Shown here piece after piece: positions 48-23,949 of a stretch of DNA of 25,764 bases. Within the stretch, counting starts at the first letter, position 1, and every line of letters begins with the position of its first letter. The notes beneath the pieces were generated by a model that saw only the letters and a program-made list of their open reading frames with translations, was not told where the DNA came from and made no database searches. A program made the position numbers and the translations under genes. Source of the stretch: an uncultured Candidatus Babeliaceae bacterium (lineage in GTDB: Bacteria; Babelota; Babeliae; Babelales; Babelaceae); assembly GCA_964638315.1 (NCBI GenBank), contig CAZWYO010000018.1:1-25764 (forward strand). Reading direction: 5' to 3'.

Positions 48-362
48 ATGTGGGCTATAAGTTTATATAACGGAAAAAACTCAAACTCCGCTCGTCACAA
101 AATTGGATATTTTGAGAAAGCCGGTTTTATACATGACCATAACAATATGCTATATTTAGCATACATCGCATATGAAAGAAGTTACATTTATTCCGCACAC
201 CCTGAGCTTGTCGAAGGGTTTCTCGGGTGCGGAACGTGTGTGAATTTTTTCGAATTAACCGCACATTCAGACCCTTCGACAAGCTCAGGGTGTGCGGAGT
301 TTGATACTCTTGAAAACCGTAAAAATGTTAAAAAACTTTTTGCATTTGGTGTAAGGAGCTGA
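48..362 (+). pseudogene. Degraded ORF whose centre is entirely a palindromic repeat insertion; possible remnant of a toxin partner for the downstream antitoxin fragment
   Basis: The ORF reads through repeat copy 1 at 198-298 (encoded peptide ...HPELVEGF...STSSGCAE...). It ends 3 nt before an antitoxin-like start, which is a toxin-antitoxin-like arrangement. No toxin motif was recognised. Confidence 0.2.
198..298. repeat. Composite nested palindromic repeat element, copy 1: motif M CACCCTGAGCTTGTCGAAGGG at 198-218 and its reverse complement at 272-292, each inside CCGCACA/TGTGCGG stems
   Basis: Inverted repeat read directly in the sequence. The same motif recurs at 1691-1711 and 25641-25661, with the reverse complement at 25716-25733. 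Confidence 0.8.
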
Positions 363-7796: not shown

Positions 7797-7975
7797 TGTT
7801 GTTTAGCACGGTCTATTCGGTCAAATAACCAAAACGCAAACGGCCTGGAAATAACCTGACGCAAATTATTGTTACCACCAATTCCTATTTTGTATCATGG
7901 AGCTGGCGGCTTGTGTATCTGTCTATTTCAAACGTGATAGACATACAAAAAAAAACAAGTTCAAGAGGTGATGCT

Positions 7976-9100
7976 ATGTTGCGATTTTACAAAGGATTCC
8001 TGCTAACCTTGCTCGTTTTTGCTATGCTGCTACCACACAAAACATGTGCCATGGACAAAAGAGAACCAACAAAACTTATCGAACTTCTCAAAAAAGGCGA
8101 ACAACAAGATGTGCTCTGTTACCTCTCAACCTGCAACCTGGATGAGATTAACAAAAAGGACCATGAAACAGGATCCACAGCACTGCAGCTGGCAGCGCGA
8201 AGAGGATATGTAGAGGTTATGAGAGTTTTACTTGAAAAAGGTGCCAAAGTAAATGAGAAGAATGAAGGGGTGGATTGGACAGCCCTACACTATGCTTTCA
8301 CTTTTGCGCCAGAGGAATTTATAGGGGCAATAGTCACCCTGTTACTCAAAAATGGCGCAGACCCAAATATCTCAGATATCGTTGGAACCACACCATTTGT
8401 TCAGGCATGTGAAAAACGCAAATACAAGGTAGTCGATCTCTTCTTCAACAAAACGATAACCTCCTTCAAGCCAGATCTTACAAAAAAAAGGCTTACCGGC
8501 CTTCCCCCTCTGATTGATATCCTCACCTCTGACGCGCCTCCACCAAAAATAGTAAAATTATTACTTAAAAATGGCGCCCATACAGGGATTCTTCACGTAG
8601 CAGGCAAGGAATATGCGCTTGCAGACTGGGTGAAAATTTTTAGGCCACAGAAAAAGTTCCCCAACTACCAGACCGAAACAATTGCCAATTGCCTTACAGT
8701 TGCCCTGCTAAAAAGGGAACTCGAATGGAAAATTAAGAAAAATAGCCCTGGAGTTCAACTGGAATCGCTCGCGCAAAGGCTCCGCGCCGCTGACAAAAAA
8801 TACTACAAAAGCTTTCTGATGCTCGCCTACTTTCAAAATCAATTTGAAAACACCTGCGCAAAACTCTGCTATATTTTTGACCCCCCGTACAGTAACGGGA
8901 TCATAGCCACAGTCGCAGAAGAGCTGCAAATCCGTACCACAAAAAACAACCCGATAATTAAACCTGATATTCAGATACATTTTAGGAAAACCTGCAGATG
9001 CCTCTCATGCAGAAAATTCAGACGCACACGGCCAACTATGCACCAGAAAAAACTACCAGACACGCCCTTTAAAATCGAATTGATGGAAATAAAAAACTGA
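7976..9100 (+). CDS. Ankyrin-repeat protein with N-terminal signal peptide (effector-like)
   Basis: AGAGGTG lies 6 nt before the ATG. Signal peptide MLRFYKGFLLTLLVFAMLLPHKTCA, and several ANK repeats such as GSTALQLAARRGYVEVMRVLLEKGAKVN. Confidence 0.8.
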   Translation: MLRFYKGFLLTLLVFAMLLPHKTCAMDKREPTKLIELLKKGEQQDVLCYLSTCNLDEINKKDHETGSTALQLAARRGYVEVMRVLLEKGAKVNEKNEGVDWTALHYAFTFAPEEFIGAIVTLLLKNGADPNISDIVGTTPFVQACEKRKYKVVDLFFNKTITSFKPDLTKKRLTGLPPLIDILTSDAPPPKIVKLLLKNGAHTGILHVAGKEYALADWVKIFRPQKKFPNYQTETIANCLTVALLKRELEWKIKKNSPGVQLESLAQRLRAADKKYYKSFLMLAYFQNQFENTCAKLCYIFDPPYSNGIIATVAEELQIRTTKNNPIIKPDIQIHFRKTCRCLSCRKFRRTRPTMHQKKLPDTPFKIELMEIKN

Positions 9101-9203
9101 ACGGGCCACTCTATTGCGCCGAAATAGATAATCTTGTTAAGTTGGTATTGGACATCCACGAGTAATCTAATTTGATTTGTGTCGAAAGACACAAGGAGGT
9201 TGT

Positions 9204-10367
9204 ATGCAAAAGCTCACCATTTTTTGTTGCATGCTACTAATCGTTGCCGTTGGCACCACGAACACCATGAAAAAAAACGGGGTATGTAAAAAAAGACTTC
9301 TCTACCTCGCCATCCAAGAGGACAATCTGGCCAATGTAAAGGGAATACTTGAAACAAACAAAAAGCTTATCAATGAACCTCTCAAAGATGGATTTGCGGC
9401 CCTTCATCTGGCTGTTTATTTCAAACAGATCGAGATTATCAAACATCTTTTAGGCCTTCCCACCATCAATGCAAACGTCCATCGCATCCTATGTGGGTCT
9501 GCGCAGGGAGTTACGCCCCTTCACCTTGTAGCAAATAATGGCTCACTAGAGATCATCAATCTACTGAGCACACATCAAAAAATCAGAATCAATATCCGTG
9601 ATGAGTGGCGACGCACACCGCTCCATTTTGCATCAGCGCAGGGTGCAGTAGCAATAATAGCTTATCTCTGCTCATTACCTGGGATTGCTATCAATATCCG
9701 CGACATGGAAGGTCTCTCCCCGCTGGCCTATGCTGTCAAGAGCGGTTCACTCGAAGCCGTTAAGACGCTATGTGGATGTCTCAAGATAAATCTTCTTTAT
9801 AGTGACTGGGAAAAATCGATCGCTCTACACCTCGCAGCAGGAAATAACGGGACCGATATTATAAATTTTTTTCTCTCTAAAGGGGTGCCTGTCGACATTA
9901 GAAATGAACTCGGTTTCACACCACTGCATGTCGCCTCATTTTGCGGAAATAAAGATGCGATAAACCAACTCATAAATTGCGGTGCAGATGTTAATGCTCT
10001 GACAAAAAAGAAAGAGAAGCCCATAGACCTCTGTTTTATGCGTGGGCACTACGCGGCGGCAGCCGATCTTCTGAAAAACGGCGCATATATGACCGAAGCG
10101 CTATGGAAAAAAGTCTGCAAAAATGGAAACTTTTCACCTGTCGTTGATGCCCTGATCATCGACCCTTTTGTGAAAATAGATGGTCCCAAGAAAAAAACAG
10201 ACCTTTATAAAAGCATACATATTGCCATAAAAAATAAACAAAACACGCCGCTAGAACGGGTTTTTCGGAAATATGTCCAACAAATCTCTCAGGGCTATGG
10301 GCCAAATATCGTTCTAACTGAAGAAGACCAGAAGATTGAAAAGCAGTATTTTAAACCCCTACTGTGA
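9204..10367 (+). CDS. Ankyrin-repeat protein with N-terminal signal peptide (effector-like)
   Basis: AAGGAGG sits just before the ATG. Signal peptide MQKLTIFCCMLLIVAVGTTNT, and at least six ANK repeats (…TPLHLVANNGSLEIINLL…, …TPLHVASFCGNKDAINQLINCGADVNA…). Confidence 0.8.
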   Translation: MQKLTIFCCMLLIVAVGTTNTMKKNGVCKKRLLYLAIQEDNLANVKGILETNKKLINEPLKDGFAALHLAVYFKQIEIIKHLLGLPTINANVHRILCGSAQGVTPLHLVANNGSLEIINLLSTHQKIRINIRDEWRRTPLHFASAQGAVAIIAYLCSLPGIAINIRDMEGLSPLAYAVKSGSLEAVKTLCGCLKINLLYSDWEKSIALHLAAGNNGTDIINFFLSKGVPVDIRNELGFTPLHVASFCGNKDAINQLINCGADVNALTKKKEKPIDLCFMRGHYAAAADLLKNGAYMTEALWKKVCKNGNFSPVVDALIIDPFVKIDGPKKKTDLYKSIHIAIKNKQNTPLERVFRKYVQQISQGYGPNIVLTEEDQKIEKQYFKPLL

Positions 10368-11736: not shown

Positions 11737-12474
11737 ATGCCACAGGGAAGAGAGGAACCTATGCAACCGTCCAATCTCATTTATACAATCGAAGACCTTG
11801 GCGATCTGGTGCCATTTTTGAATCGCAATAATAGTGCTCGCACACTCATGATATTTGACATAGATGATACACTCATACGGATGTGCGATCATCAAGCATC
11901 AGGAACTTGGTATAGAGAGGCTCACGACGAACTTACGGCTCAGGGGAAGTCTGCAGAAGAAGCAAAGTTCATTCTTTTTCAGACACACATCTCCGCCCTA
12001 TACCGCACACCGGTCGAATTGGTAAACAAAAAAATATCAGAACATATCAGCATGTTAAGCGAAAACAAGGTTACCACCATCTGCCTTACCGCACGCGAAG
12101 GACGCTGCCTTCTTTATGCAACGCTCAGGCATCTGAACGATGCGCATATCAACTTCATGCAGAGCGAGGAATGTCTAAAAAAGACACTCTTTTTCCCCGA
12201 AATACCTGATTGCGACATCATCTATTCATCTGGAATACTCTTCACCGGCGGCGCAAACAAAGGAGAGGTTCTTGAGCTCTTTTTTAAAAAAACTGGCTAC
12301 CTACCAACACATATAATCTTTGTCGACGACTCTTTAGTTAATGTCGAGGCGGTCAGCATAAGCGCCAAGAAAATGGGAATAGCGTTCGATGGTTTTCATT
12401 TTACTGGCGTTAAAATACCCCTTACAGAACCAACTTTTGTGGTACATAAGAAACCAATCCAACCAGAGCGGTAA
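11737..12474 (+). CDS. HAD-superfamily phosphatase-like protein (paralog A of 13156-13920); alternative start at 11761
   Basis: HAD motifs: I FDIDDTLIR, II LTAR, III K in GGANKGE, IV HIIFVDDSL. Clear paralogy with the gene at 13156. The ATG at 11761 has the better SD (AGAGGA). Confidence 0.7.
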   Translation: MPQGREEPMQPSNLIYTIEDLGDLVPFLNRNNSARTLMIFDIDDTLIRMCDHQASGTWYREAHDELTAQGKSAEEAKFILFQTHISALYRTPVELVNKKISEHISMLSENKVTTICLTAREGRCLLYATLRHLNDAHINFMQSEECLKKTLFFPEIPDCDIIYSSGILFTGGANKGEVLELFFKKTGYLPTHIIFVDDSLVNVEAVSISAKKMGIAFDGFHFTGVKIPLTEPTFVVHKKPIQPER

Positions 12475-12571
12475 GCCGCTTGACGCCCAGATGTGGTCTG
12501 ATTTTTATTGATTTTCGCCAAACATGCCTGGTACGATAAATATAGGTCGTACAAAATGGAAGGTTATGGTT

Positions 12572-13081
12572 ATGAAAAATATACGTATGTTCATGGTGAT
12601 TATGTTTCTGACATGGGCAAGTGGCGCTTTCTCGCGGCTCACGGAGTTCCTCCCCTCAGACAACGAATACAGTCAAAACCAAGGCAAACAAACAACTAAG
12701 CTCGATATCAAGACCATAGAACTCGAAAACAAACTCCGCGACAAGTACAATATGTCACGTGACCAAGAAAAAAAACTACGCGAAGAGCTGGCCAATCTAG
12801 AACAGAAAAAAGCTGCCGAAGAGAGAATGACAAAGCATCTCAACGAACTTGGTGCACTCGATGCAGCACTCAAGTGCAATGTCGAGATACTTAAACAGAT
12901 TAACGATGAGATACGACGACTAAAAAATCTTAAGTCCCATAAAAAAACCGCTAGCATCTTAAAAGATATCAAGAAACAGACGCGGGACCTAAAAAAGCAA
13001 CAAGGCAAACTTGATGATGTGGTAAAAGCTCTTATTAAAAAAAGAGATGGTGTTCAGCTGAAAATCAAGAAAATAGCCTAA
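12572..13081 (+). CDS. Secreted coiled-coil protein, K/E/L-rich
   Basis: GGAAGG lies 8 nt before the ATG. Signal peptide MKNIRMFMVIMFLTWASGAFS. The rest reads as heptad-like K/E/L-rich sequence. Confidence 0.6.
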   Translation: MKNIRMFMVIMFLTWASGAFSRLTEFLPSDNEYSQNQGKQTTKLDIKTIELENKLRDKYNMSRDQEKKLREELANLEQKKAAEERMTKHLNELGALDAALKCNVEILKQINDEIRRLKNLKSHKKTASILKDIKKQTRDLKKQQGKLDDVVKALIKKRDGVQLKIKKIA

Positions 13082-13155
13082 CCATTTGCACCCTGCTGTC
13101 AATCGCGTTATCATAAACTTATAAGTACCACCAAATATCCTTATAAAAGGTTTTT

Positions 13156-13920
13156 ATGTATATCATGAGAAGCGCACTATGCGCGATTGTTTTTTTATGC
13201 GCCCCGCTGCACACATATATTCGCGAAACTGACTCACTAGTCGATATAGTCGATATAGGTGATCAAAATACCCTCGTTGTTTTCGATCTTGACGACACCC
13301 TCATCCGCGGTTTTGGCGCAGCAACTGACGAATGGTTCAGAGCACACGTAAAAGAACTTGTTGACGCAGGTAAGACCGCCAGTGAAGCGATTGATATGGT
13401 CCTGCCCGCCTACGCCGCAGCACAGTGCACCACCAGAGTGCAGTTTGTTGAAAACAGCGCGCCAGATATTCTTACTGAGCTGCGTACACGAAAAATTCGC
13501 ACCATCGCGCTCACCTCACGCGGCAGAAAAGAGCTCTTTGCCGCAACATTCCGACAATTTTCTGATCTTGGCATCACGCTTAAACAGGACGACCCCGCAT
13601 GGCAACAGATGTTCACGCTCGAGCCGCTACGCGGGGAGACACGCTATCAGGATGGGATCATTTTCTGTGATGGGAATAACAAAGGGGCCGCCCTTGAAGT
13701 TTTTTTTGAACGACTCGGTTACCGCCCCACCCATATTATTTTTGTCGATGACTCTCTCGGCAACCTTCAGGCCGTTGAGAAGCTCGCAGAAAAGCTCCAT
13801 ATTCGCTTTAATGGATTCCACTATTTGCGTGTGCAACACGGGCTTTTGGATCAGCCGATTCTCACGCCGTCTTATGCGTCATCAACGCCTTCCAGCCAAC
13901 AGGAAACCTCGGTTCAATAA
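13156..13920 (+). CDS. HAD-superfamily phosphatase-like protein with signal peptide (paralog B of 11737-12474)
   Basis: Signal-like N-terminus MRSALCAIVFLCAPLHT, then FDLDDTLIR … GIIFCDGNNKGAALEVFFERLGYRPTHIIFVDDSL, collinear with paralog A. There is a 59-bp convergent overlap with thyX. Confidence 0.7.
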   Translation: MYIMRSALCAIVFLCAPLHTYIRETDSLVDIVDIGDQNTLVVFDLDDTLIRGFGAATDEWFRAHVKELVDAGKTASEAIDMVLPAYAAAQCTTRVQFVENSAPDILTELRTRKIRTIALTSRGRKELFAATFRQFSDLGITLKQDDPAWQQMFTLEPLRGETRYQDGIIFCDGNNKGAALEVFFERLGYRPTHIIFVDDSLGNLQAVEKLAEKLHIRFNGFHYLRVQHGLLDQPILTPSYASSTPSSQQETSVQ

Positions 13921-17473: not shown

Positions 17474-18367
17474 TTACTCTTTTACTGCGATAAACTTGAG
17501 GCTAGAGATCGGCAGCTCTTTAGTGCCGAACCACTTCTCATTTACGGAGAAATCCTCGTCAACAATCGTCACCTTAAACCCAAGCTCCGTCAAACGATCA
17601 ATGTACTCCTGCTTACTTATCGCACCACTCACGCACGCGCAGAGCAACTTGGTATCCCTTTTCTGTTCTGGTGTGAGTGATCCAGTCAACACCACATCCG
17701 AGATCGCCATGGCCCCATTCTGTTTGAGAATGCGATGGATCTCCTTGAACACCTTCATCTTATCGGGCGCCAGATTGATAACGCAGTTGCTGATCACCAC
17801 ATCGACGGTACCGGTCGCAACAGGCATGTTTTCAATGTCCCCAAGCCTAAACTCAACATTGTCATACCCATACTTGACGGCATTAGCGCGTGCTTTTGCG
17901 ATCATCTTCTTGGTCATGTCGATGCCAATAACTTGTCCCGATTGACCCACCTTGCGCGCAGCTAAAAAGCAATCAAACCCTGCACCAGATCCCAGATCGA
18001 CAACCGTCGAGCCAGACTTAATTGGAGCAAAACTTACTGGATTGCCGCACCCAAGACCCAAATTAGCATCAGCAAGGTCATCGATCTCCTCGCGCGAATA
18101 ACCAATCTCTTCAGACAGCGCGGCGCCACCGCCACAGCATCCGCCCCCCAGACAGCACATGCCACCCTCGTCCGCTACTTTGCCGTACTCTTGCTGTATG
18201 ACCGCTTTGAGATCAGCACTGCTAGCGGGAGCTTTCTGCTCTGTCTGCTTCACCGCTTTTTTACCACAACAGCCTCCAGGACAACAGCAGCCAGACATGG
18301 TGGCTAGAGGAAAACTACACATGACAAAACAGACCGATACACGGCTCAGTTTGAAAGATATCTTCAT
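17474..18367 (-). CDS. ArsM-family SAM-dependent methyltransferase (arsenite methyltransferase-like) with N-terminal lipoprotein-type signal peptide and Cys/Gly-rich extension
   Basis: GLGCGNP, SAM motif VVDLGSGAGFD, VEFRLGDIE, VVISNCVINL and CACVSGA are collinear with bacterial ArsM. AAGGAG lies 6 nt before the ATG at 18367, giving leader MKISFKLSRVSVCFVMCSFPLATMSGC followed by CCPGGCC … MCCLGGGCCGGG. Confidence 0.75.
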   Translation of the reverse strand: MKISFKLSRVSVCFVMCSFPLATMSGCCCPGGCCGKKAVKQTEQKAPASSADLKAVIQQEYGKVADEGGMCCLGGGCCGGGAALSEEIGYSREEIDDLADANLGLGCGNPVSFAPIKSGSTVVDLGSGAGFDCFLAARKVGQSGQVIGIDMTKKMIAKARANAVKYGYDNVEFRLGDIENMPVATGTVDVVISNCVINLAPDKMKVFKEIHRILKQNGAMAISDVVLTGSLTPEQKRDTKLLCACVSGAISKQEYIDRLTELGFKVTIVDEDFSVNEKWFGTKELPISSLKFIAVKE

Positions 18368-18465
18368 ATAAAACTCCTTGAAAAAATGGATTAGCCCGCT
18401 TACGAGAACTATTCTCTTCAACCTCCCACACCCTCCACAATACTACAATCAGGACGCCCCCCCAC

Positions 18466-18963
18466 CTAAATTACCCCAGCAGTTATCTGCTTTCTCAAAA
18501 CAACGCCACACCTTTCAACCACTTTATGCGATTGAGCGCGGCCCATGTCGGTCTTTAGGAACGCCGTGTACTTATACAAAAATTTTTCCTCGGAGATACG
18601 CTTGCTATTTGCGAGCACGCTCGCCACTGGACCGTTCTCCCATACCTTCGCAGCGTCCGGAACATCTCCCAAAATGGTTGGCCTCAGATAGGCAACCACC
18701 GATGGTGTAATAGAGTTGGTGCGTGCAGCATATTCGAGAATACCCATCATGTTGCAAAAATGTTGGGGGACTTTCTCCTGCCCAAACATCTTCGCCACGG
18801 TTCCGGGGAACCAGACGAGAAAATGGAATACCGCCTCGTACGTCTCCTCAGAAAAGAAGGCCCCCGGCGCCTCATTCACAAGTACTTTCTCAACACCTGC
18901 AAGTTGCCCAACTGCAGAAGACATACTGAGCAAAAAGAGTAGAACAAAAGTTTTCCGCGCCAT
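18466..18963 (-). CDS. Secreted hypothetical protein (166 aa)
   Basis: GGGAGG lies 6 nt before the ATG. Signal peptide MARKTFVLLFLLSMSSAVGQLAG. No recognisable domain. Confidence 0.55.
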   Translation of the reverse strand: MARKTFVLLFLLSMSSAVGQLAGVEKVLVNEAPGAFFSEETYEAVFHFLVWFPGTVAKMFGQEKVPQHFCNMMGILEYAARTNSITPSVVAYLRPTILGDVPDAAKVWENGPVASVLANSKRISEEKFLYKYTAFLKTDMGRAQSHKVVERCGVVLRKQITAGVI

Positions 18964-19135
18964 CTTAGGCCTCCCACACCTGATACAAAACGCACACCTA
19001 AAAACACAAAAAAACTCACGTACTCGAGCATACCACAGTGCCAGTTCAACAGCCAAACCTTGCCTCGCACTAGAAAAAAATGATCTCACGAGCTATAATA
19101 ATAGCGTATATAAGTCACTTTTTTGGTATTAAACC

Positions 19136-19720
19136 ATGAAAAAAATATGGGTCGCATCAACAAACCAATCAAAGATCGATGGAACTCGCATGGCGTTTGA
19201 GTTGCTCTATCCAGGCGCTGAGTTTACCGCGATAGGTCAAAAGATCCCCTCAACAGACACTAAAGTACTTTGGCACGGAGAGCTCGTCGAGCAGCCACGA
19301 ACTGACGAAGATACTAAGCATGGGGCATTCGCGCGCCTTCAATATCTCATGGATATCAGCGTAACGCATAGCCAAGAACCGGATTTTTATGTCGCAATCG
19401 AGGCGGGTGTTGCACCGTACGGAGATGGGCTTATTGCTTCTTCCTGGGCAGCGGTATCAAATGGGGTTAATACAGAATCATACGGAAGATCCCCTAGCTT
19501 TATCGTCCCACCCCGTGTTGTCGAAGAGATGCAAAAGGGGCATACCATGCTCGAGGCATGCAAAATCGTCTACCCTCCGCATATGAATCCCAATGCAAAA
19601 GACGGACTTATCGCAATTCTTTCTGGTGGCGTAATCACCCGAACAGATCTCTCGGCCCAAGCAGTTATGATGGCGCTGTTGGAGGTTAAGAATCGTGCGT
19701 TGTATGGGAAATACGCTTAA
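19136..19720 (+). CDS. YjjX-like inosine/xanthosine triphosphatase (DUF84/NTPase_I-T family)
   Basis: MKKIWVASTNQSKIDGTRMAF, FYVAIEAGV and GGVITRTDLSAQAVMMALL align with E. coli YjjX MHQVVCATTNPAKI… / …WVAIEAG… / …LTR…QA…AL. A TATAAT lies at about 19093. Confidence 0.65.
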   Translation: MKKIWVASTNQSKIDGTRMAFELLYPGAEFTAIGQKIPSTDTKVLWHGELVEQPRTDEDTKHGAFARLQYLMDISVTHSQEPDFYVAIEAGVAPYGDGLIASSWAAVSNGVNTESYGRSPSFIVPPRVVEEMQKGHTMLEACKIVYPPHMNPNAKDGLIAILSGGVITRTDLSAQAVMMALLEVKNRALYGKYA

Positions 19721-19829
19721 ATCATGCAAAAATGCTTTGACAAGCCTATGCTGCACCTCTATAATAAAAACTGAATTAGCGCCATAGATCGTTGATACCA
19801 TATAACCTAAACCATCAGGAGTTTTATTT

Positions 19830-20303
19830 ATGAAATTGTCTATCAAGAGACTTTTATTAATCAGCATTTTCAGCATTCAGTTATTACCAATGGCCGCTGA
19901 GGCAATGCAAGAAAAAGAAAACCCACCGAAGAAAGAAGAACCAAAACCATGGTTGCATCAACGCTTATATAATGAGTATAGAGAACAACCTACTTGGGTC
20001 CAAGTAGCAGGGGCTGGCCCCGCCTGTTTAGCTCTCTACTCCGTTCCTGTGGGATTTTTTAAAAATCTTTTGTGCTTAGTCTTTGGAATCAAGCCAGGAA
20101 CATCCACCACCTTCGATACGAGTAAATCGATCGCTGAACCCTTTTACAAAAATCTTCCCCCAGTTATACAGGTCCCAATTGCCTTATGTATCTTGCCGCT
20201 CATTGGTAGTGCTGTTGAAACTGGCTACACTCTTAAATCAGTTGGGAAGGCTATCGGAACTGTGGCTAAAAATGTCGCGACCGCAGTGCAGGGCAAAAAC
20301 TAA
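19830..20303 (+). CDS. Secreted/membrane hypothetical protein (157 aa); cargo of a small insertion
   Basis: AGGAG lies 9 nt before the ATG, with a TATAAT at about 19760. Signal peptide MKLSIKRLLLISIFSIQLLPMAAEA, two further hydrophobic segments and an Ala/Gly/Val-rich C-terminus. Confidence 0.55.
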   Translation: MKLSIKRLLLISIFSIQLLPMAAEAMQEKENPPKKEEPKPWLHQRLYNEYREQPTWVQVAGAGPACLALYSVPVGFFKNLLCLVFGIKPGTSTTFDTSKSIAEPFYKNLPPVIQVPIALCILPLIGSAVETGYTLKSVGKAIGTVAKNVATAVQGKN

Positions 20304-20328
20304 TAAACAACGACCATTACATAAAGAG

Positions 20329-20420
20329 CCTGGTGAACGATTACGCGGACAGATCTCTCGGCACAGGCGATTGTCATGGCGCTGTTAAAAGCAAATAATG
20401 GGGATTTGTACGTAAAATAG
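20329..20420 (+). pseudogene. Displaced duplicate of the last ~26 codons plus stop of the YjjX-like gene
   Basis: It encodes ITRTDLSAQAIVMALLKANNGDLYVK* versus the gene's ITRTDLSAQAVMMALLEVKNRALYGKYA*. Nucleotide identity is about 70-75% with many synonymous changes, and an in-frame TGA lies just upstream. Confidence 0.7.
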
Positions 20421-20433
20421 GGCTAAAAAACAG

Positions 20434-21051
20434 ATGGTTACTATGCGAGAGCAAAACACAAAAGTAGTTATCTTCGATGTTGATGGCGTTCTGATTAACA
20501 GCACAGATGCATTCGGCAACTACCTGTGGAAAAAAGACATCGAAAAAGATCTCGGGATAACCCCCGATCAAGTAGAACAGATTTTTTCTAACGAGTGGCC
20601 CGCGGTAATCAGAGGGCATATTGATACAAGACAGCACTTTGAGAAAAGGCTCACAACATTGCAGCTAGAGCTTCCAGTTGATACGTTTATGGACTACTGG
20701 CTCGAGCATGATACAAATATTAACAGAGAAATAATACCGGAAATCGAAGCTATCAAGGGCATAAAACTCTATATCGGCACCAATCAAGATCCATATCGGG
20801 CGGCATTCCTGCAAAAGAAGTTTGCCAAATATTTTGATGGAATGTTTGCCTCGCATCAGATTGGGTTTATCAAGCCGGAGCCAGAATATTTTGAATACAT
20901 CGAATCACACCTGAACATGCAAGCCGCTAATATTGCCTTTATTGATGATTCTCTGTCCAACATTCAGGCGGCTATACAGCGTGGGTGGATATGCCATCAT
21001 TACCAAAATATCGAAGGGTATAGAGATTTTATCCGGTCTTGTGCCCACTAA
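20434..21051 (+). CDS. HAD-superfamily hydrolase, subfamily IA-like
   Basis: Motif I VVIFDVDGVLI, motif III K in FIKPEP, motif IV IAFIDDSLSN. Confidence 0.75.
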   Translation: MVTMREQNTKVVIFDVDGVLINSTDAFGNYLWKKDIEKDLGITPDQVEQIFSNEWPAVIRGHIDTRQHFEKRLTTLQLELPVDTFMDYWLEHDTNINREIIPEIEAIKGIKLYIGTNQDPYRAAFLQKKFAKYFDGMFASHQIGFIKPEPEYFEYIESHLNMQAANIAFIDDSLSNIQAAIQRGWICHHYQNIEGYRDFIRSCAH

Positions 21052-21112
21052 AACATCGCCCGCTTCAACCCAAAATACTCAGTCTTGCGCTCACCACTTT
21101 TCAGATCTTCTC
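21048..21112 (-). pseudogene. Displaced duplicate of the last ~20 codons plus stop of the NUDIX gene at 23491-23949
   Basis: Positions 21048-21110 match 23491-23553 with 3 mismatches. The minus-strand reading encodes EDLKSGERKTEYFGLKRAMF* versus the gene's DDLKNGERKTEYFGLKRARF*. The copy's antisense stop overlaps the HAD gene's TAA. Confidence 0.75.
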
Positions 21113-21163
21113 CAAAATAGCCCCAGCCCAGTAATATTTACGCGGCTGCGCGGCCTATCCTAC

Positions 21164-21192
21164 TTGACAATTATAATTATTATGGTTATTAT
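21164..21192 (+). promoter_or_regulatory. Sigma70-like promoter candidate, TTGACA-17 bp-TATTAT, in an AT-rich low-complexity tract upstream of the ankyrin-HExxH gene
   Basis: TTGACA at 21164-21169 with TATTAT at 21187-21192. The surrounding ATTATAATTATTA tract is of low complexity, so the hexamers may be fortuitous. Confidence 0.25.
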
Positions 21193-21255
21193 AATTATTA
21201 TAATTGCATTACATTAAGATATAAGATTCAATAAAATTGGGATCCGTGGAGAAAT

Positions 21256-23448
21256 ATGAAAAATTTTACCAAAATAACAGCATTAGCAATCCTATTTTGC
21301 ATTGCAATGCAAACGCATCCTGTGATAGATACTACTCTGAAGGTCATTGGTGCTGGAACAAGTGCGATAGGCTTTATAGCTGGAATAACGATAATGGCAA
21401 AAGAGTACATCAATGACAATCAGAAGCAGTATACAGAAACTATATGGCACGCGCTGATGGGGACGGTTGTAGCTGAAGATTCGAGCCAGTCAAGCTATTT
21501 TTTAAAGATCAAAGACCTGCTCTGCCCAAAACCCCGGGGGAGATACGTGCGAAACAAAAAAAAGAGTAAGGAAATTATTAAAGATGCCATCAATAATGGG
21601 TTGGATATCAATCAGGAGTGTAATTTTGGGTACTGGTCTGAGCTTCCTCTTCATGAGGCTGTTCGACACGAAAAAAATATTTCAATCATCAAACTTCTTC
21701 TCGATAATGGCGCCAAAGTGAACCTAAAAAACGCCCGAGAGGAATGTCTATTGCATAAGGCCGCCGACATAAAGGTTGTCGATTTTCTTCTATCCAAAGG
21801 GTGTGATCCAAACCTTCAGAATGCCCGTGGCCAGACAGCGCTGCACTATTTCCTCACTAGACAGAGCGGTCTAGTGATAAGCAAACTCCTTCTCGCCCAC
21901 GGTGCCAGATGCGACATCAAGGACCGGCACGGAGATACGCCGCTCCATCAGATCCTCAAAAAAAAGAATTCACCAGACCACCTCGAGTTTATTGCATTAC
22001 TTCTCAACCAAAAAGATTGTGATTCAAATAGCCAAAATATGGACGGACAGACTGCCTTACACCTTGCCATAGAAAACCACCAATATCAGCTTGTTAAGCT
22101 ACTAATCGATCATGGTGCCAATCCGCTCATAAAAAACAAAAACGGAAAGACTGCATTCGATCTTAGCTGTTCGACGCTCATACAGGGCGAACTACGGAGA
22201 GGACTAAACAGCAAGTATGAGGTCGACGATACAGTAACCCATCAGGATATTACAGACATCAAACCATTTGCATCGGAAAAAGCAGCAACCGACGCATATC
22301 GGCAGCTTCAGGAAGAGATAAAAAAACATGGACATACGTCGTTGATAGTCGACAAAATGCTTCTTTTCTGTCAACGACTAATGCGTTATAAGGTTATGAT
22401 AGATATTGCAAAACAAAAGACCTACACCCAAACACTCGGCCTCAGTATAAACAAAGCCGGCTACATTACCATGAAACTGCTTCCTCAAACCATTGATCGC
22501 GCACAAACGGGAGTAAACGGTAGTAAATTGACCGAGATAAACGAACAAAATACACTCCTGTTCATGTTAAAAATCGACAAAAACAGAACCACTACACGTA
22601 ACCGACTTTATGCGCTACAACAAAAACGCGTTAACCACGCACCCAACAAGTCGGCGAAGTCTTTCTTCCCCGAAATCTTCATAGATGATGAGACAGTTGG
22701 AACTAACGCATCTGGCATATATCGCACACAAGAATGCGTAATCTGGGTAGCTGAATGGGCGCTGTATACGGATGACTGGGTTCTTACCGTCATGCATGAA
22801 TTTCTCCACCACCTACAATATATTACCGGCCGAGAAATGGGTGGTTCTGATGGTGCACCAGTAAAAAACGATGATGAACTCGCAGAATCTTTCGGCGAGA
22901 TCATCAATGAGTATTTTGCTGAAAAAGGAAAAATAAAACTCGCCCCAGATAAAGAGAAACTCCTTGAAAAATTGCGCGCAGAAATAAAACCGAATAAATA
23001 TACACAAAAACAGATCGTTGATAAGTTGCTATGCGGCTTACCATACTTTTCCCAACTCATGAATTACGCGGTACTGCTACACGAACAAAAAAAGAAAAAT
23101 CCCAATACAGCACTTCAAGAACACGAAAAGGCCATACTCACGTGTTATGAGAAGCTTTGGCCTGAGATAAATAGGCGTATAATATGCGCTACAAAAAAGA
23201 TGGAAAAAGTCGATATCTGCGCAGAGAATGCAACTCGCTGCGAAGAACTTGCATTCAGGCAACACACTAAGAAAAAAGATTTTGAAAAATATACCAACAA
23301 AATAAAAGGCAAGCTGCGCACCTACTACGCTAAGAAAAACAAGCTTACATACGAGCTGCAGAAAAAGATCGATAAAGCAAGGAACTATCGTTACGGTAGC
23401 AAAGGATTTTTAAAACTCAAAAAAGAGCTCGGCCTCATACCAAGCTGA
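21256..23448 (+). CDS. Large ankyrin-repeat protein (730 aa) with N-terminal hydrophobic leader/TM and C-terminal HExxH zinc-metallopeptidase-like domain
   Basis: N-terminus MKNFTKITALAILFCIAMQT plus a second hydrophobic segment. At least six ANK repeats (LPLHEAVRHEKNISIIKLLLDNGAKVN … GQTALHLAIENHQYQLVKLLIDHGANP). The C-terminal half carries VMHEFLHHLQY (HExxH) followed by acidic DDELAESFGE. Confidence 0.8.
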   Translation: MKNFTKITALAILFCIAMQTHPVIDTTLKVIGAGTSAIGFIAGITIMAKEYINDNQKQYTETIWHALMGTVVAEDSSQSSYFLKIKDLLCPKPRGRYVRNKKKSKEIIKDAINNGLDINQECNFGYWSELPLHEAVRHEKNISIIKLLLDNGAKVNLKNAREECLLHKAADIKVVDFLLSKGCDPNLQNARGQTALHYFLTRQSGLVISKLLLAHGARCDIKDRHGDTPLHQILKKKNSPDHLEFIALLLNQKDCDSNSQNMDGQTALHLAIENHQYQLVKLLIDHGANPLIKNKNGKTAFDLSCSTLIQGELRRGLNSKYEVDDTVTHQDITDIKPFASEKAATDAYRQLQEEIKKHGHTSLIVDKMLLFCQRLMRYKVMIDIAKQKTYTQTLGLSINKAGYITMKLLPQTIDRAQTGVNGSKLTEINEQNTLLFMLKIDKNRTTTRNRLYALQQKRVNHAPNKSAKSFFPEIFIDDETVGTNASGIYRTQECVIWVAEWALYTDDWVLTVMHEFLHHLQYITGREMGGSDGAPVKNDDELAESFGEIINEYFAEKGKIKLAPDKEKLLEKLRAEIKPNKYTQKQIVDKLLCGLPYFSQLMNYAVLLHEQKKKNPNTALQEHEKAILTCYEKLWPEINRRIICATKKMEKVDICAENATRCEELAFRQHTKKKDFEKYTNKIKGKLRTYYAKKNKLTYELQKKIDKARNYRYGSKGFLKLKKELGLIPS

Positions 23449-23490
23449 TACCAATTTTTGTGCACGATCCGCACCCGGGTAACCATGCAA

Positions 23491-23949
23491 CTAAAACCTC
23501 GCCCGTTTCAACCCAAAATACTCAGTCTTGCGCTCACCATTTTTCAGGTCATCCCAGTCAAGATCTTTGATGGGCGCTGGGAAAACGATTTCGCTTGCCA
23601 GCTCTTCTTTGCCGTACCAGCCGACGTTCACGATGCCCTCAATCTTGGCCTCGTCAGTCTCAATAAGTTCACCACCGACCAGGTCACACAAAAACCAGAA
23701 TTTGAACATCCGGTATTTTTCGGTTAAGAGATCCTCCACAAACAAAAGATTGCCCACATGGACCTCAAGCCCCGTCTCTTCCATCACCTCACGCTTGACG
23801 GTATCGACCAGGTCTTCGCCATGGTTGGCGCCCCCGCCGGGGCCCAGCAAAAAAGACCCACCGCGTCCATCGGGACACCGGTTCAGCAGGATCTTGCCGT
23901 CATGTATGATAACCGCCGAAGCGGCGATACGCACTATTTTTTCCATCAT
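23491..23949 (-). CDS. NUDIX hydrolase (Nudix box GGGANHGEDLVDTVKREVMEETGL)
   Basis: Nudix box present. Start trimmed to MMEKIVRIA, and the gene is tightly coupled to the upstream gene (which ends at 23954). Confidence 0.75.
   Translation of the reverse strand: MMEKIVRIAASAVIIHDGKILLNRCPDGRGGSFLLGPGGGANHGEDLVDTVKREVMEETGLEVHVGNLLFVEDLLTEKYRMFKFWFLCDLVGGELIETDEAKIEGIVNVGWYGKEELASEIVFPAPIKDLDWDDLKNGERKTEYFGLKRARF

What the first reader, a model, noticed from the sequence alone, without database searches (positions are those of the whole stretch)
19625..20420. Second cassette-like insertion: secreted-protein gene bracketed by diverged duplicates of the YjjX-like gene's 3' end
Positions 20329-20420 are a diverged duplicate of the last ~95 nt of the YjjX-like gene at 19625-19720. 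It translates to ITRTDLSAQAIVMALLKANNGDLYVK* versus the gene's ITRTDLSAQAVMMALLEVKNRALYGKYA*. Nucleotide identity is about 70-75%, yet many substitutions are synonymous, so both copies evolved as coding sequence before one was displaced. That fits an incoming element bringing a homologous but foreign 3' end. The displaced copy ends 13 nt before the HAD gene start, which looks like the ancestral yjjX-HAD junction. The ~620-bp insert carries only one signal-peptide gene (19830-20303) with its own TATAAT and SD.
Basis: seen in the sequence. Interest (0 to 1): 0.68.

Follow-up and report, generated by a model that had tools for sequence, protein, structure and literature searches.

The report
Displaced gene-end relics at an insertion hotspot
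A short dead copy of the end of a housekeeping gene (yjjX-like NTPase), mirrored by a dead copy of the end of the neighbouring NUDIX gene, is a recombination scar showing that three accessory genes were stacked between two convergent housekeeping genes; it is real and tidy, but it is an ordinary kind of scar, not a new mobile cassette.

Summary
Positions 20340-20427 (20329 with a 1-nt indel) copy the last 88-98 nt of the yjjX-like gene at 72% identity. The local score is 39 against 10.2±1.4 in shuffles. Differences fall 4/3/15 on codon positions 1/2/3 (P=0.0009) and dN/dS is about 0.09. The copy therefore comes from a once-functional, divergent yjjX allele, not from in-situ duplication and decay. 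No homology continues upstream.

Right after the HAD stop lies a mirror relic of the NUDIX 3' end (21047-21110), 92% identical to 23490-23553. The only close relative (L002, ~78% nt identity) has yjjX and NUDIX abutting with overlapping stops. So the whole 3.8-kb low-GC block 19722-23489 is extra: ORFan membrane gene, yjjX relic, HAD, NUDIX relic, ankyrin gene.

No integrase, transposase, attC or shared cassette ends exist. The best reading is two displacement events at an accessory-gene hotspot. In each, homology-anchored recombination with an illegitimate far end pushed an older gene end inward, leaving relic-HAD-relic as the core of an earlier yjjX-HAD-NUDIX locus.

Which yjjX copy is the incomer is unresolved. 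This is a new member of a known kind, of modest interest.

The parts
19136..19720 (+). Intact yjjX-like inosine/xanthosine triphosphatase gene (194 aa)
   Evidence: PF01931 NTPase_I-T, E=6e-31. NCBIfam ITPase/XTPase models hit below their cut-offs. 75% aa identity to L002 over the full length.
19634..19721 (+). a1: the 3' end of the intact yjjX gene that is repeated downstream
   Evidence: Reference copy of direct repeat D1. pS vs L002 is 0.49, the same as the rest of the gene at 0.52.
19722..23489 (.). Accessory block inserted between the stop codons of convergent yjjX and NUDIX
   Evidence: Absent from L002, where the two stops overlap. GC is 41.8% against 49-52% in the flanking genes.
19737..19765 (+). 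Consensus sigma-70-type promoter of the cargo gene (TTGACA-17-TATAAT)
   Evidence: 12 of 12 matches. It is a consensus match only; function is inferred.
19830..20303 (+). Cargo: ORFan gene for a 157-aa protein with a signal-peptide-like N-terminus and two hydrophobic segments
   Evidence: AGGAG 8 nt upstream; hydrophobic segments at residues 8-26, 59-85 and 111-135. No Pfam, NCBIfam or PHROG family. Only itself found among 5.8 billion proteins and 1.84 billion representatives.
20329..20427 (+). a2: relic of the 3' end of a second, divergent yjjX allele (ungapped part 20340-20427); non-coding now
   Evidence: 72% identity to a1; score 39 vs 10.2±1.4. No start codon, a 1-nt indel near 20338 and a TAC>TAG change. 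Codon-position differences 4/3/15, omega about 0.09. Homology stops abruptly upstream.
20371..20399 (+). Promoter-like site inside the relic (TTGTCA-17-AATAAT), 35 nt upstream of HAD
   Evidence: 10 of 12 matches. Both hexamers arise from a2-specific substitutions. Speculative.
20434..21051 (+). HAD-IA family hydrolase gene (205 aa)
   Evidence: PF00702 and PF13419; TIGR01509. Homologues of 50-70% aa identity sit in unrelated contexts elsewhere. GC 42%.
21047..21110 (-). b1: relic of the NUDIX 3' end; its stop overlaps the HAD stop
   Evidence: 92% identity to 23490-23553; score 54.5 vs 11.4±1.5. The reverse strand reads ...EDLKSGERKTEYFGLKRAMF*. 87.5% identity to the L002 NUDIX end.
21164..21192 (+). 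Promoter-like site of the ankyrin gene (TTGACA-17-TATTAT)
   Evidence: 11 of 12 matches.
21256..23448 (+). Ankyrin-repeat protein gene (730 aa) with a hydrophobic N-terminus
   Evidence: Ank Pfam families. Weak similarity to Dot/Icm Ank effector models, far below their cut-offs. Hydrophobic segments at residues 7-25 and 30-48.
23490..23553 (-). b2: 3' end of the intact NUDIX gene, repeated as b1; a 33-nt exact core is shared
23491..23946 (-). Intact NUDIX hydrolase gene. The ORF is open to 24075, but the L002 homologue supports the start at 23946.
   Evidence: PF00293. 72% aa identity to L002 over residues 44-194 of the long ORF.

Best explanation
The 20329-20427 segment is a dead relic of a second, divergent yjjX allele. 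It does nothing itself, except perhaps serve as spacer or promoter DNA for HAD. It is a scar.

The junction between the convergent housekeeping genes yjjX and NUDIX is a hotspot where accessory genes have accumulated. The present order is yjjX | ORFan membrane gene | yjjX relic | HAD | NUDIX relic | ankyrin gene | NUDIX. The inner piece, relic-HAD-relic, is the truncated core of an earlier compact version of the locus, yjjX-HAD-NUDIX.

Two later events pushed the old gene ends inward, one from each side. In each event, DNA from a related genome carried a homologous copy of the flanking gene plus a new promoter-bearing gene. It recombined by homology in or beyond the flanking gene. Its other end joined illegitimately inside the resident gene's last 64-98 nt. 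The model is homology-facilitated illegitimate recombination ('C-terminal displacement'); for the NUDIX side, single-crossover integration of a circularised fragment is an alternative.

On the yjjX side, the incoming segment was probably most or all of yjjX plus the cargo gene, from a lineage nearer to relative L002. The relic is probably what is left of the resident allele.

Shown: both relics, their coding-type divergence, the sharp boundaries, the empty site in L002, and the absence of mobility genes. Inferred: the order of events, the polarity, and the recombination pathway.
For: - Two mirror-image relics sit inside, and the intact genes outside. The yjjX pair a1/a2 scores 39 vs 10.2±1.4. 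The NUDIX pair b1/b2 scores 54.5 vs 11.4±1.5.
- They are the only such relics in the window.
- HAD is packed against both relics. The aligned yjjX stop lies 7 nt before the HAD ATG, and the HAD stop overlaps the NUDIX-relic stop. This mirrors the overlapping yjjX/NUDIX stops in L002.
- a2 diverged as coding sequence: differences 4/3/15 by codon position (P=0.0009), pS 0.68, omega 0.09. It was therefore a functional allele until recently relative to its age.
- Homology ends abruptly at the relic's 5' edge, and none continues into the insert. There are no repeats or inverted repeats at the unit boundaries. This fits illegitimate joints.
- L002 is colinear on both sides and lacks the whole block.
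- Block GC is 41.8% against about 50% in the core.
- HAD homologues occur in unrelated contexts, so HAD is an accessory gene.
- No recombinase is present anywhere in the window.
- Polarity hint: yjjX is less diverged from L002 at synonymous sites (pS 0.52, bootstrap interval 0.42-0.61) than the flanks (methyltransferase codons >80, 0.90; NUDIX codons 1-125, 0.77). Max-chi-square gives 0 of 300 permutations. The relic is at 0.72 from L002 and 0.68 from a1, which is the flank-like level.
- Precedent: displaced 3' ends and orphan downstream genes attributed to HFIR in T6SS and Rhs loci (PMC5361080). One-sided homology yields duplications of 109-950 bp of the homologous end in E. coli (PMC3240628).
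Against: - a1 and a2 are only 72% identical, with a longest exact run of 14 nt. If the donor and resident yjjX differed that much, homologous anchoring within yjjX would be very inefficient. The anchor would have to lie further upstream, or in a better conserved stretch.
- a1 shares the variable C-terminal tail (RALYGK) with L002 and shows no discontinuity with the rest of the gene. This is equally what a native a1 and a foreign a2 would give.
- The lower synonymous divergence of yjjX could be gene-specific constraint rather than import.
- b1 is as close to L002 as b2 is (pS 0.20 and 0.08). The NUDIX end is therefore conserved at nucleotide level for an unknown reason, and it says little about history.
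- Only one close relative exists. No genome with yjjX-HAD-NUDIX, yjjX-cargo or Ank-NUDIX was found.
Confidence: 0.5

Rival explanations
1. The relic-HAD-relic piece is the incomer. The intact yjjX is native, and a random fragment of a related genome's yjjX-HAD-NUDIX locus was captured. That fragment was cut 98 nt before the yjjX stop and at least 64 nt into NUDIX. It was probably anchored by homology in the conserved NUDIX 3' end, and its yjjX end joined illegitimately downstream of the cargo gene. The Ank unit was added later in the same way.
For: - a1 diverges from L002 as the rest of yjjX does (third-position divergence 44% vs 38%, p=0.66). a2 is significantly further away (68%, p=0.008).
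- a1 and L002 share the tail RALYGK; a2 has GDLYVK*.
- HAD has accessory-like GC (42%) and is absent from L002.
- The NUDIX end contains a 25-33-nt stretch identical between copies and L002. It could serve as an anchor.
- This model needs no recombination between the 72%-identical yjjX ends.
Against: - It requires yjjX to have an intrinsically lower synonymous rate than both flanking genes (pS 0.52 vs 0.77-0.90).
- It needs the cargo gene to have been there first by some other route.
- It is less economical than one symmetrical displacement process.
Confidence: 0.2
2. Remnant of an integrase-mediated integrative element of the e14/phage 21-icd type. In this reading, an element whose attachment site mimics the yjjX 3' end integrated into yjjX and restored the reading frame with its own copy. 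It displaced the native end (as with the icdC pseudogene) and later lost its integrase and nearly all cargo.
For: - Direct repeats of a gene's 3' end flank the insert, and the upstream copy completes the ORF.
- The differences are mostly synonymous, as in icd/icdC (PMC13626634).
- Exact runs of 14 nt (a) and 33 nt (b) could be cores.
- The NUDIX-end stretch with frozen synonymous sites could be a conserved attB.
Against: - No integrase, excisionase or any phage- or element-type gene in the insert or in the 25.8-kb window.
- The insert is 618 bp with a single ORFan gene.
- a1 is not distinguishable from the rest of yjjX in its divergence from L002.
- The cargo and Ank units share no end sequences.
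- Two independent decayed elements, each reduced to exactly one promoter-bearing gene, is not parsimonious.
Confidence: 0.13
3. In-situ tandem duplication of yjjX or of its 3' end, followed by neutral decay of the downstream copy. The cargo ORF would then arise within, or be inserted into, the decayed copy.
For: A relative (L003) does carry two tandem NTPase_I-T genes.
Against: - No homology between 19721-20339 and the yjjX 5' part, at either DNA or translated level (score 11.5 vs 11.9±1.4; no tblastn hit in order).
- Differences are concentrated at third positions (4/3/15, P=0.0009) with omega 0.09. Neutral decay would spread them evenly.
- pS between the copies (0.68) exceeds that between the gene and its L002 orthologue (0.49-0.52).
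- Both a1 and a2 resemble L003 gene 2, not gene 1.
Confidence: 0.03
4. Assembly artefact: a metagenomic contig that chimerically joins two strain variants of the locus.
For: The source is a metagenome-derived contig. Logan contigs of the Ank unit break exactly in the 33-nt exact b1/b2 core.
Against: - The yjjX-cargo and cargo-a2-HAD junctions are reproduced at 100% identity in separate run assemblies (L001, L005, L065).
- The cargo|a2 junction has no shared k-mer that could mislead a graph assembler.
- The variants either side of the b core are linked consistently with the given order.
Confidence: 0.03

Closest known systems
C-terminal displacement / orphan arrays attributed to homology-facilitated illegitimate recombination (T6SS effector-immunity arrays in Vibrio cholerae, PMC5361080; Rhs loci, PMC2935791 as cited there)
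   Same: An intact gene is followed by a new downstream gene. Then comes a displaced 3' fragment of the older allele, still attached to its own downstream gene. Homology has sharp ends, and no recombinase is involved.
   Different: Here the displaced genes are housekeeping nucleotide-hydrolase genes, not polymorphic toxins. There is no toxin/immunity logic. Displacement happened from both sides of a convergent gene pair, leaving a mirrored pair of relics. Donors are unknown.
icd / icdC with prophage e14 or phage 21 in E. coli (PMC13626634 and Hill et al. 1989 as cited there)
   Same: A protein-coding gene's 3' end is duplicated. The upstream copy keeps the gene intact, and the downstream copy is a C-terminal pseudogene. 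The differences between copies are largely synonymous.
   Different: No integrase or prophage is present, and the insert is a single 474-bp ORFan gene. The copies are far more diverged (72% identity). The intact gene's end is not distinguishable from the rest of the gene.
Single-crossover (Campbell-type) integration of circularised DNA with one-sided homology (E. coli lacZ experiments, PMC3240628)
   Same: It yields direct duplications of 109-950 bp of the homologous gene end flanking the inserted DNA. This fits b1/b2 (64 nt, 92% identity, 33-nt exact core).
   Different: It was observed in the laboratory with identical homology. It is implausible for a1/a2 at 72% identity.
Integron gene cassettes
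   Same: Single promoter-proximal genes are added serially at one site, pushing older ones along.
   Different: There is no attC, no attI and no IntI. The inserted genes carry their own promoters, and the repeats are gene ends, not recombination sites.

Membership tests
Integrase-mediated integrative element in a protein-gene 3' end (icd/e14 type) | Direct repeats of the target gene's 3' end flank the insert, and the upstream copy completes the ORF | tested here: met
Integrase-mediated integrative element in a protein-gene 3' end (icd/e14 type) | Tyrosine or serine recombinase (with or without an excisionase) encoded in or next to the insert | tested here: not met
   No such Pfam or PHROG hit in any ORF of the 25.8-kb window
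Integrase-mediated integrative element in a protein-gene 3' end (icd/e14 type) | Identical core sequence at the crossover point in attL and attR | tested here: inconclusive
   Longest exact run is 14 nt for a1/a2 and 33 nt for b1/b2. Neither can be shown to be a core.
Integrase-mediated integrative element in a protein-gene 3' end (icd/e14 type) | Empty site (attB) in relatives that matches precise removal of the insert | tested here: inconclusive
   L002 lacks the cargo unit, but it also lacks a2, HAD, b1 and Ank. No relative has only the cargo missing.
Displacement by homology-facilitated illegitimate recombination | Intact gene, new downstream DNA, then a co-oriented 3' fragment of an older allele attached to its own downstream neighbour | tested here: met
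   a1-cargo-a2-HAD, and the mirror image NUDIX-Ank-b1-HAD. The a2/HAD and HAD/b1 junctions are tight.
Displacement by homology-facilitated illegitimate recombination | Abrupt end of homology at the relic's inner boundary, with no repeat or recombination-site structure | tested here: met
Displacement by homology-facilitated illegitimate recombination | The intact (incoming) allele has a different history from the surrounding core genes | tested here: inconclusive
   yjjX pS vs L002 is 0.52 against 0.77-0.90 in the flanks; max-chi-square gives 0 of 300 permutations. Only two genomes are available, and gene-specific constraint is not excluded.
Displacement by homology-facilitated illegitimate recombination | DNA uptake or transfer route and one-sided recombination demonstrable in the organism | not testable with these tools
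Integron gene cassette | attC imperfect inverted repeat at the cassette end, and an IntI/attI platform | tested here: not met
   No inverted repeats at the unit ends, no shared end sequences, no integrase
Tandem duplication with decay | Homology extends over the duplicated unit, and differences are spread evenly over codon positions | tested here: not met
Transposon / IS / MITE insertion | Terminal inverted repeats and a target-site duplication | tested here: not met
   No terminal inverted repeats. The window's own palindromic element is not at these boundaries, apart from a weak 17-nt fragment at 23468-23484 (E=0.05). The short direct repeats at the junctions (7-9 nt, A-rich) are not beyond chance.

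The most novel reading that the evidence does not exclude
The ends of the convergent yjjX and NUDIX genes act as docking sites for an unrecognised, recombinase-independent (or trans-acting) system. That system serially inserts single promoter-bearing genes while rebuilding the target gene's end. The roughly 33-nt NUDIX-end stretch, whose synonymous sites are frozen across genomes and in the relic (pS 0.07-0.20 against 0.77 in the rest of the gene), would be its conserved attachment sequence.
Probability: 0.06. Interest if true: 0.7.

Novelty: new member of a known kind. Interest (0 to 1): 0.3.

Why it matters
The relics give a readable, stepwise record of how an uncultured, ankyrin-rich (probably host-associated) bacterium stacked lineage-specific membrane and ankyrin genes between two housekeeping genes without any mobile-element machinery. 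They also show that 'C-terminal displacement', best known from polymorphic toxin loci, leaves the same scars in ordinary housekeeping genes.

In practice, the relics are markers. Searching new genomes of this clade for a2-type and b1-type ends would identify the donor lineages and date the acquisitions. The finding does not reveal a new mechanism.

Tried and rejected
- Extended tandem duplication. I ran local DNA alignment and tblastn of five YjjX proteins against 19721-20440. Nothing appeared beyond the known 26 codons.
- Closer relatives. The genome contigs and metagenome-contig scans with a YjjX alignment returned hits of at most 34% identity. The protein search gave only L002-L004.
- Cargo homologues. 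There are none in 5.8 billion proteins or in 1.84 billion representatives, and none in Pfam, NCBIfam or PHROGs. So 'the same cargo next to yjjX elsewhere' cannot be tested.
- The HAD donor. Five HAD homologue loci (L060-L064) have unrelated neighbours and no yjjX or NUDIX relics. HAD was not found in viral contigs.
- Common cassette ends. The flanks of the cargo and Ank units share nothing beyond chance. No attC-like or terminal inverted repeats were found.
- A third flanked insertion. The extra 18392-19088 segment relative to L002 has no significant flanking repeat (13 vs 11.6±1.9).
- Other relics. An all-ORF tblastn against the window found only a2 and b1. There are none in L002-L004.
- Known RNAs. 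There are no Rfam hits and no tRNAs.
- Mosaic crossover inside the repeat (a1 resident on the left and foreign on the right). Polarisation with L002 gives no such pattern.
- RNA structure. The region of a2 folds slightly better than shuffles (z=-2.96). I did not pursue this, and I treat it as unexplained rather than functional.
Full report
**1. The observation**

The window carries a yjjX-like NTPase gene at 19136-19720 (PF01931, E=6e-31). Its last 88 nt (19634-19721, 'a1') recur at 20340-20427 ('a2') with 72% ungapped identity. A gapped alignment carries the match back to about 20329 through a 1-nt indel. The local alignment score is 39, against 10.2±1.4 (maximum 19.5) for 500 shuffles.

The relic translates in the yjjX frame as ITRTDLSAQAIVMALLKANNGDLYVK*. 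This aligns with the C-termini of all four available homologues. It has no start codon and stops upstream in frame. It also has a TAC>TAG change two codons before the position of the gene's own stop.

Between the copies lie three features. There is a perfect TTGACA-17-TATAAT promoter (19737-19765). There is an AGGAG. And there is one ORF (19830-20303) whose product has a signal-peptide-like N-terminus and two more hydrophobic segments.

Logan assemblies of three separate runs reproduce the yjjX-cargo and cargo-relic-HAD junctions at 100% identity (L001, L005, L065).

**2. Duplication and decay is excluded**

The 19721-20339 insert shows no similarity to the 5' 500 nt of yjjX (score 11.5 vs 11.9±1.4). 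Five YjjX proteins searched by tblastn at E<=100 find only the 26-codon relic.

The differences between a1 and a2 fall 4, 3 and 15 on codon positions 1, 2 and 3 (binomial P=0.0009). By Nei-Gojobori, pS is 0.68, pN 0.15 and omega about 0.09. This compares with omega 0.17 for the whole gene against its L002 orthologue.

So a2 was part of a functional yjjX gene for nearly all of its separation from a1. That separation (pS 0.68) is deeper than the one between the intact gene and L002 (pS 0.49-0.52).

**3.

The only close relative is Logan contig L002 (about 78% nt identity; 72-75% aa identity in three genes). It is colinear with the window on both sides, but the methyltransferase, yjjX and NUDIX genes lie directly adjacent. 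The yjjX and NUDIX stop codons overlap.

In the window the NUDIX gene lies at 23491-23946 on the minus strand. Everything from 19722 to 23489 is therefore extra relative to L002.

The same comparison uncovered a second relic. Positions 21047-21110 ('b1') begin inside the HAD stop codon. They are 92% identical to the NUDIX 3' end at 23490-23553 ('b2') and 87.5% identical to L002's. The score is 54.5 vs 11.4±1.5. The reverse strand reads EDLKSGERKTEYFGLKRAMF*, against DDLKNGERKTEYFGLKRARF* in the intact gene.

The full order is:

yjjX | cargo | yjjX relic | HAD | NUDIX relic | Ank (21256-23448) | NUDIX

The block has 41.8% GC, against 49-52% in the flanking genes. An all-ORF tblastn shows that a2 and b1 are the only gene-end relics in the 25.8-kb window. 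The relatives have none.

**4. The inner piece is a fragment of another version of the locus**

The stop that aligns with the yjjX stop (TAA, 20424-20426) lies 7 nt before the HAD ATG. The HAD stop overlaps the stop of the NUDIX relic on the other strand. This mirrors the overlap of the yjjX and NUDIX stops in L002.

Relic-HAD-relic therefore looks like the middle of a compact yjjX-HAD-NUDIX locus, cut 98 nt before the yjjX stop and 64 nt into NUDIX. This is inference from anatomy; no genome with that arrangement was found.

HAD homologues (50-70% aa identity) exist, but in unrelated neighbourhoods and without relics. HAD is thus itself an accessory gene. A functional link is plausible from established knowledge of these families. 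YjjX-type ITPase/XTPase, HAD-IA nucleotidases and NUDIX hydrolases all act on non-canonical nucleotides. NCBIfam gives only sub-threshold nucleotidase similarities for this HAD.

**5. No mobile-element machinery**

No ORF in the window matches an integrase, transposase or other recombinase in Pfam or PHROGs. There are no inverted repeats at the unit boundaries. The flanks of the cargo unit and of the Ank unit share nothing beyond chance.

The window's own palindromic repeat element is not at these boundaries, apart from a weak 17-nt fragment at 23468-23484 (E=0.05).

The cargo protein has no relative at all among 5.8 billion proteins or 1.84 billion cluster representatives.

**6. Mechanism**

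The arrangement is intact gene, then new gene, then a co-oriented 3' fragment of an older allele still attached to its downstream neighbour. Here it occurs from both sides. This is the signature described for 'C-terminal displacement'. In Vibrio T6SS effector-immunity arrays and in Rhs loci it is attributed to homology-facilitated illegitimate recombination (PMC5361080).

Experiments with one-sided homology in E. coli also gave mostly single-crossover integrations. These duplicate 109-950 bp of the homologous gene end (PMC3240628). That would fit b1/b2 (92% identity, 33-nt exact core). It would not fit a1/a2 (72% identity, 14-nt longest exact run).

The alternative precedent is the integrase-mediated icd/icdC duplication made by e14 (PMC13626634). 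It shares the anatomy, but its defining recombinase is absent here.

I therefore take recombinase-independent, homology-anchored displacement as the best explanation (confidence about 0.5). A decayed integrative element remains a minor rival (0.13).

**7. Polarity: which yjjX end is resident?**

The evidence points both ways.

For a native a1:
- Its third-position divergence from L002 (44%) equals that of the rest of the gene (38%, p=0.66). a2 is further away (68%, p=0.008).
- a1 shares the variable tail RALYGK with L002.

For a resident a2:
- yjjX as a whole is significantly closer to L002 at synonymous sites (pS 0.52, bootstrap interval 0.42-0.61) than the flanking genes are (methyltransferase codons >80, 0.90; NUDIX codons 1-125, 0.77).
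- A max-chi-square scan finds a low-divergence segment centred on yjjX that no permutation out of 300 matches.
- Its GC3 (0.47) is like L002's (0.49), not like its neighbours' (0.55-0.63).
- The relic's distances (0.72 to L002, 0.68 to a1) are at the flank level.

The most economical reading is that most or all of the present yjjX came in together with the cargo gene, from a lineage nearer to L002. The relic would then be the last 98 nt of the allele it replaced. With two genomes and 26 codons this is a lean, not a result. I give the opposite polarity (relic-HAD-relic as a captured foreign fragment) a confidence of 0.2.

**8. Unexplained**

The last 26 codons of NUDIX show almost no synonymous difference from L002 (pS 0.07) while pN is normal (0.16). 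b1 shares this pattern.

The plus strand there is C-rich and unusually unstructured (MFE -2.1 kcal/mol, z=+2.0). A nucleotide-level function is possible: termination of the convergent transcript, or a favoured recombination anchor. Neither was tested.

A promoter-like TTGTCA-17-AATAAT (10 of 12 matches) lies inside a2, 35 nt before HAD. It is created by a2-specific substitutions. The scan as a whole is not enriched over shuffles, so this is only a hint.

**9. Verdict**

The feature is real and better structured than reported. The 'foreign homologous coding end' idea is right in substance. The 'cassette' idea is not supported.

It is a new example of a known kind of recombination scar, in an unusual place: housekeeping genes, on both sides of a convergent pair, in an uncultured ankyrin-rich bacterium with almost no sequenced relatives. 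Interest is modest (0.3).

The most novel reading is a dedicated docking system at conserved gene ends. It is not excluded, but nothing positive supports it beyond the frozen NUDIX-end stretch (probability about 0.06).

Noticed in passing
window 193-297, 1686-1846, 25636-25733: A MITE/REP-like palindromic element with 26-nt arms (CCGCACACCCTGAGCTTGTCGAAGGG) occurs three times. Two copies bracket the NUDIX (475-1056) and Ham1 (1078-1806) genes. The pattern gives 4 arm matches against 0 expected.
   Followed up: partly
window 23491-23570 and 21047-21110; L002 1362-1440: The 3'-terminal 26 codons of NUDIX have nearly frozen synonymous sites between the window and L002 (pS 0.07 against 0.77 for the rest of the gene), with normal replacement divergence. 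Relic b1 shares the pattern. The plus strand is C-rich and unstructured.
   Followed up: partly
window 18392-19088: A 207-aa ORF (18466-19089, minus strand, hydrophobic N-terminus, no family) sits between the methyltransferase gene and yjjX. It is absent from L002. It has core-like GC and no flanking repeat beyond chance.
   Followed up: yes
L003 185-1380: A more distant relative carries two tandem NTPase_I-T (yjjX-like) genes about 36-48% identical to each other. They are followed by a nucleotidyltransferase/NTase_sub_bind pair on the other strand.
   Followed up: partly
L004 2577-5913: In another relative, yjjX is followed by a convergent 853-aa ankyrin-repeat gene. The 3' flank of yjjX is thus variable and carries accessory genes in every relative found.
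   Followed up: no
window 17474-18421 to 23946 vs L002: Synonymous divergence from L002 is strongly heterogeneous. About 36% of identical-amino-acid codons differ from methyltransferase codon 81 through yjjX to NUDIX codon 39, against 66% outside (0 of 300 permutations). This suggests an inter-lineage recombination tract centred on yjjX.
   Followed up: partly
window 20371-20399: A promoter-like TTGTCA-17-AATAAT lies inside the yjjX relic, 35 nt upstream of HAD. Both hexamers are created by relic-specific substitutions. The RNA of 20300-20440 folds somewhat better than shuffles (z=-2.96).
   Followed up: no
window 7913-10367, 11737-13920: Further low-GC accessory genes: two adjacent ankyrin-repeat genes, and two DUF2608 paralogues (36% aa identity) separated by an ORF with no family. 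ThyX, Ham1, MgsA and two NUDIX genes make this a nucleotide-housekeeping neighbourhood.
   Followed up: no
L066, L067 (window 21067-23539): Independent Logan contigs of the Ank unit start and stop inside the 33-nt exact core shared by b1 and b2. A k=31 graph cannot by itself tell the given order from a HAD-NUDIX junction plus an Ank circle.
   Followed up: partly
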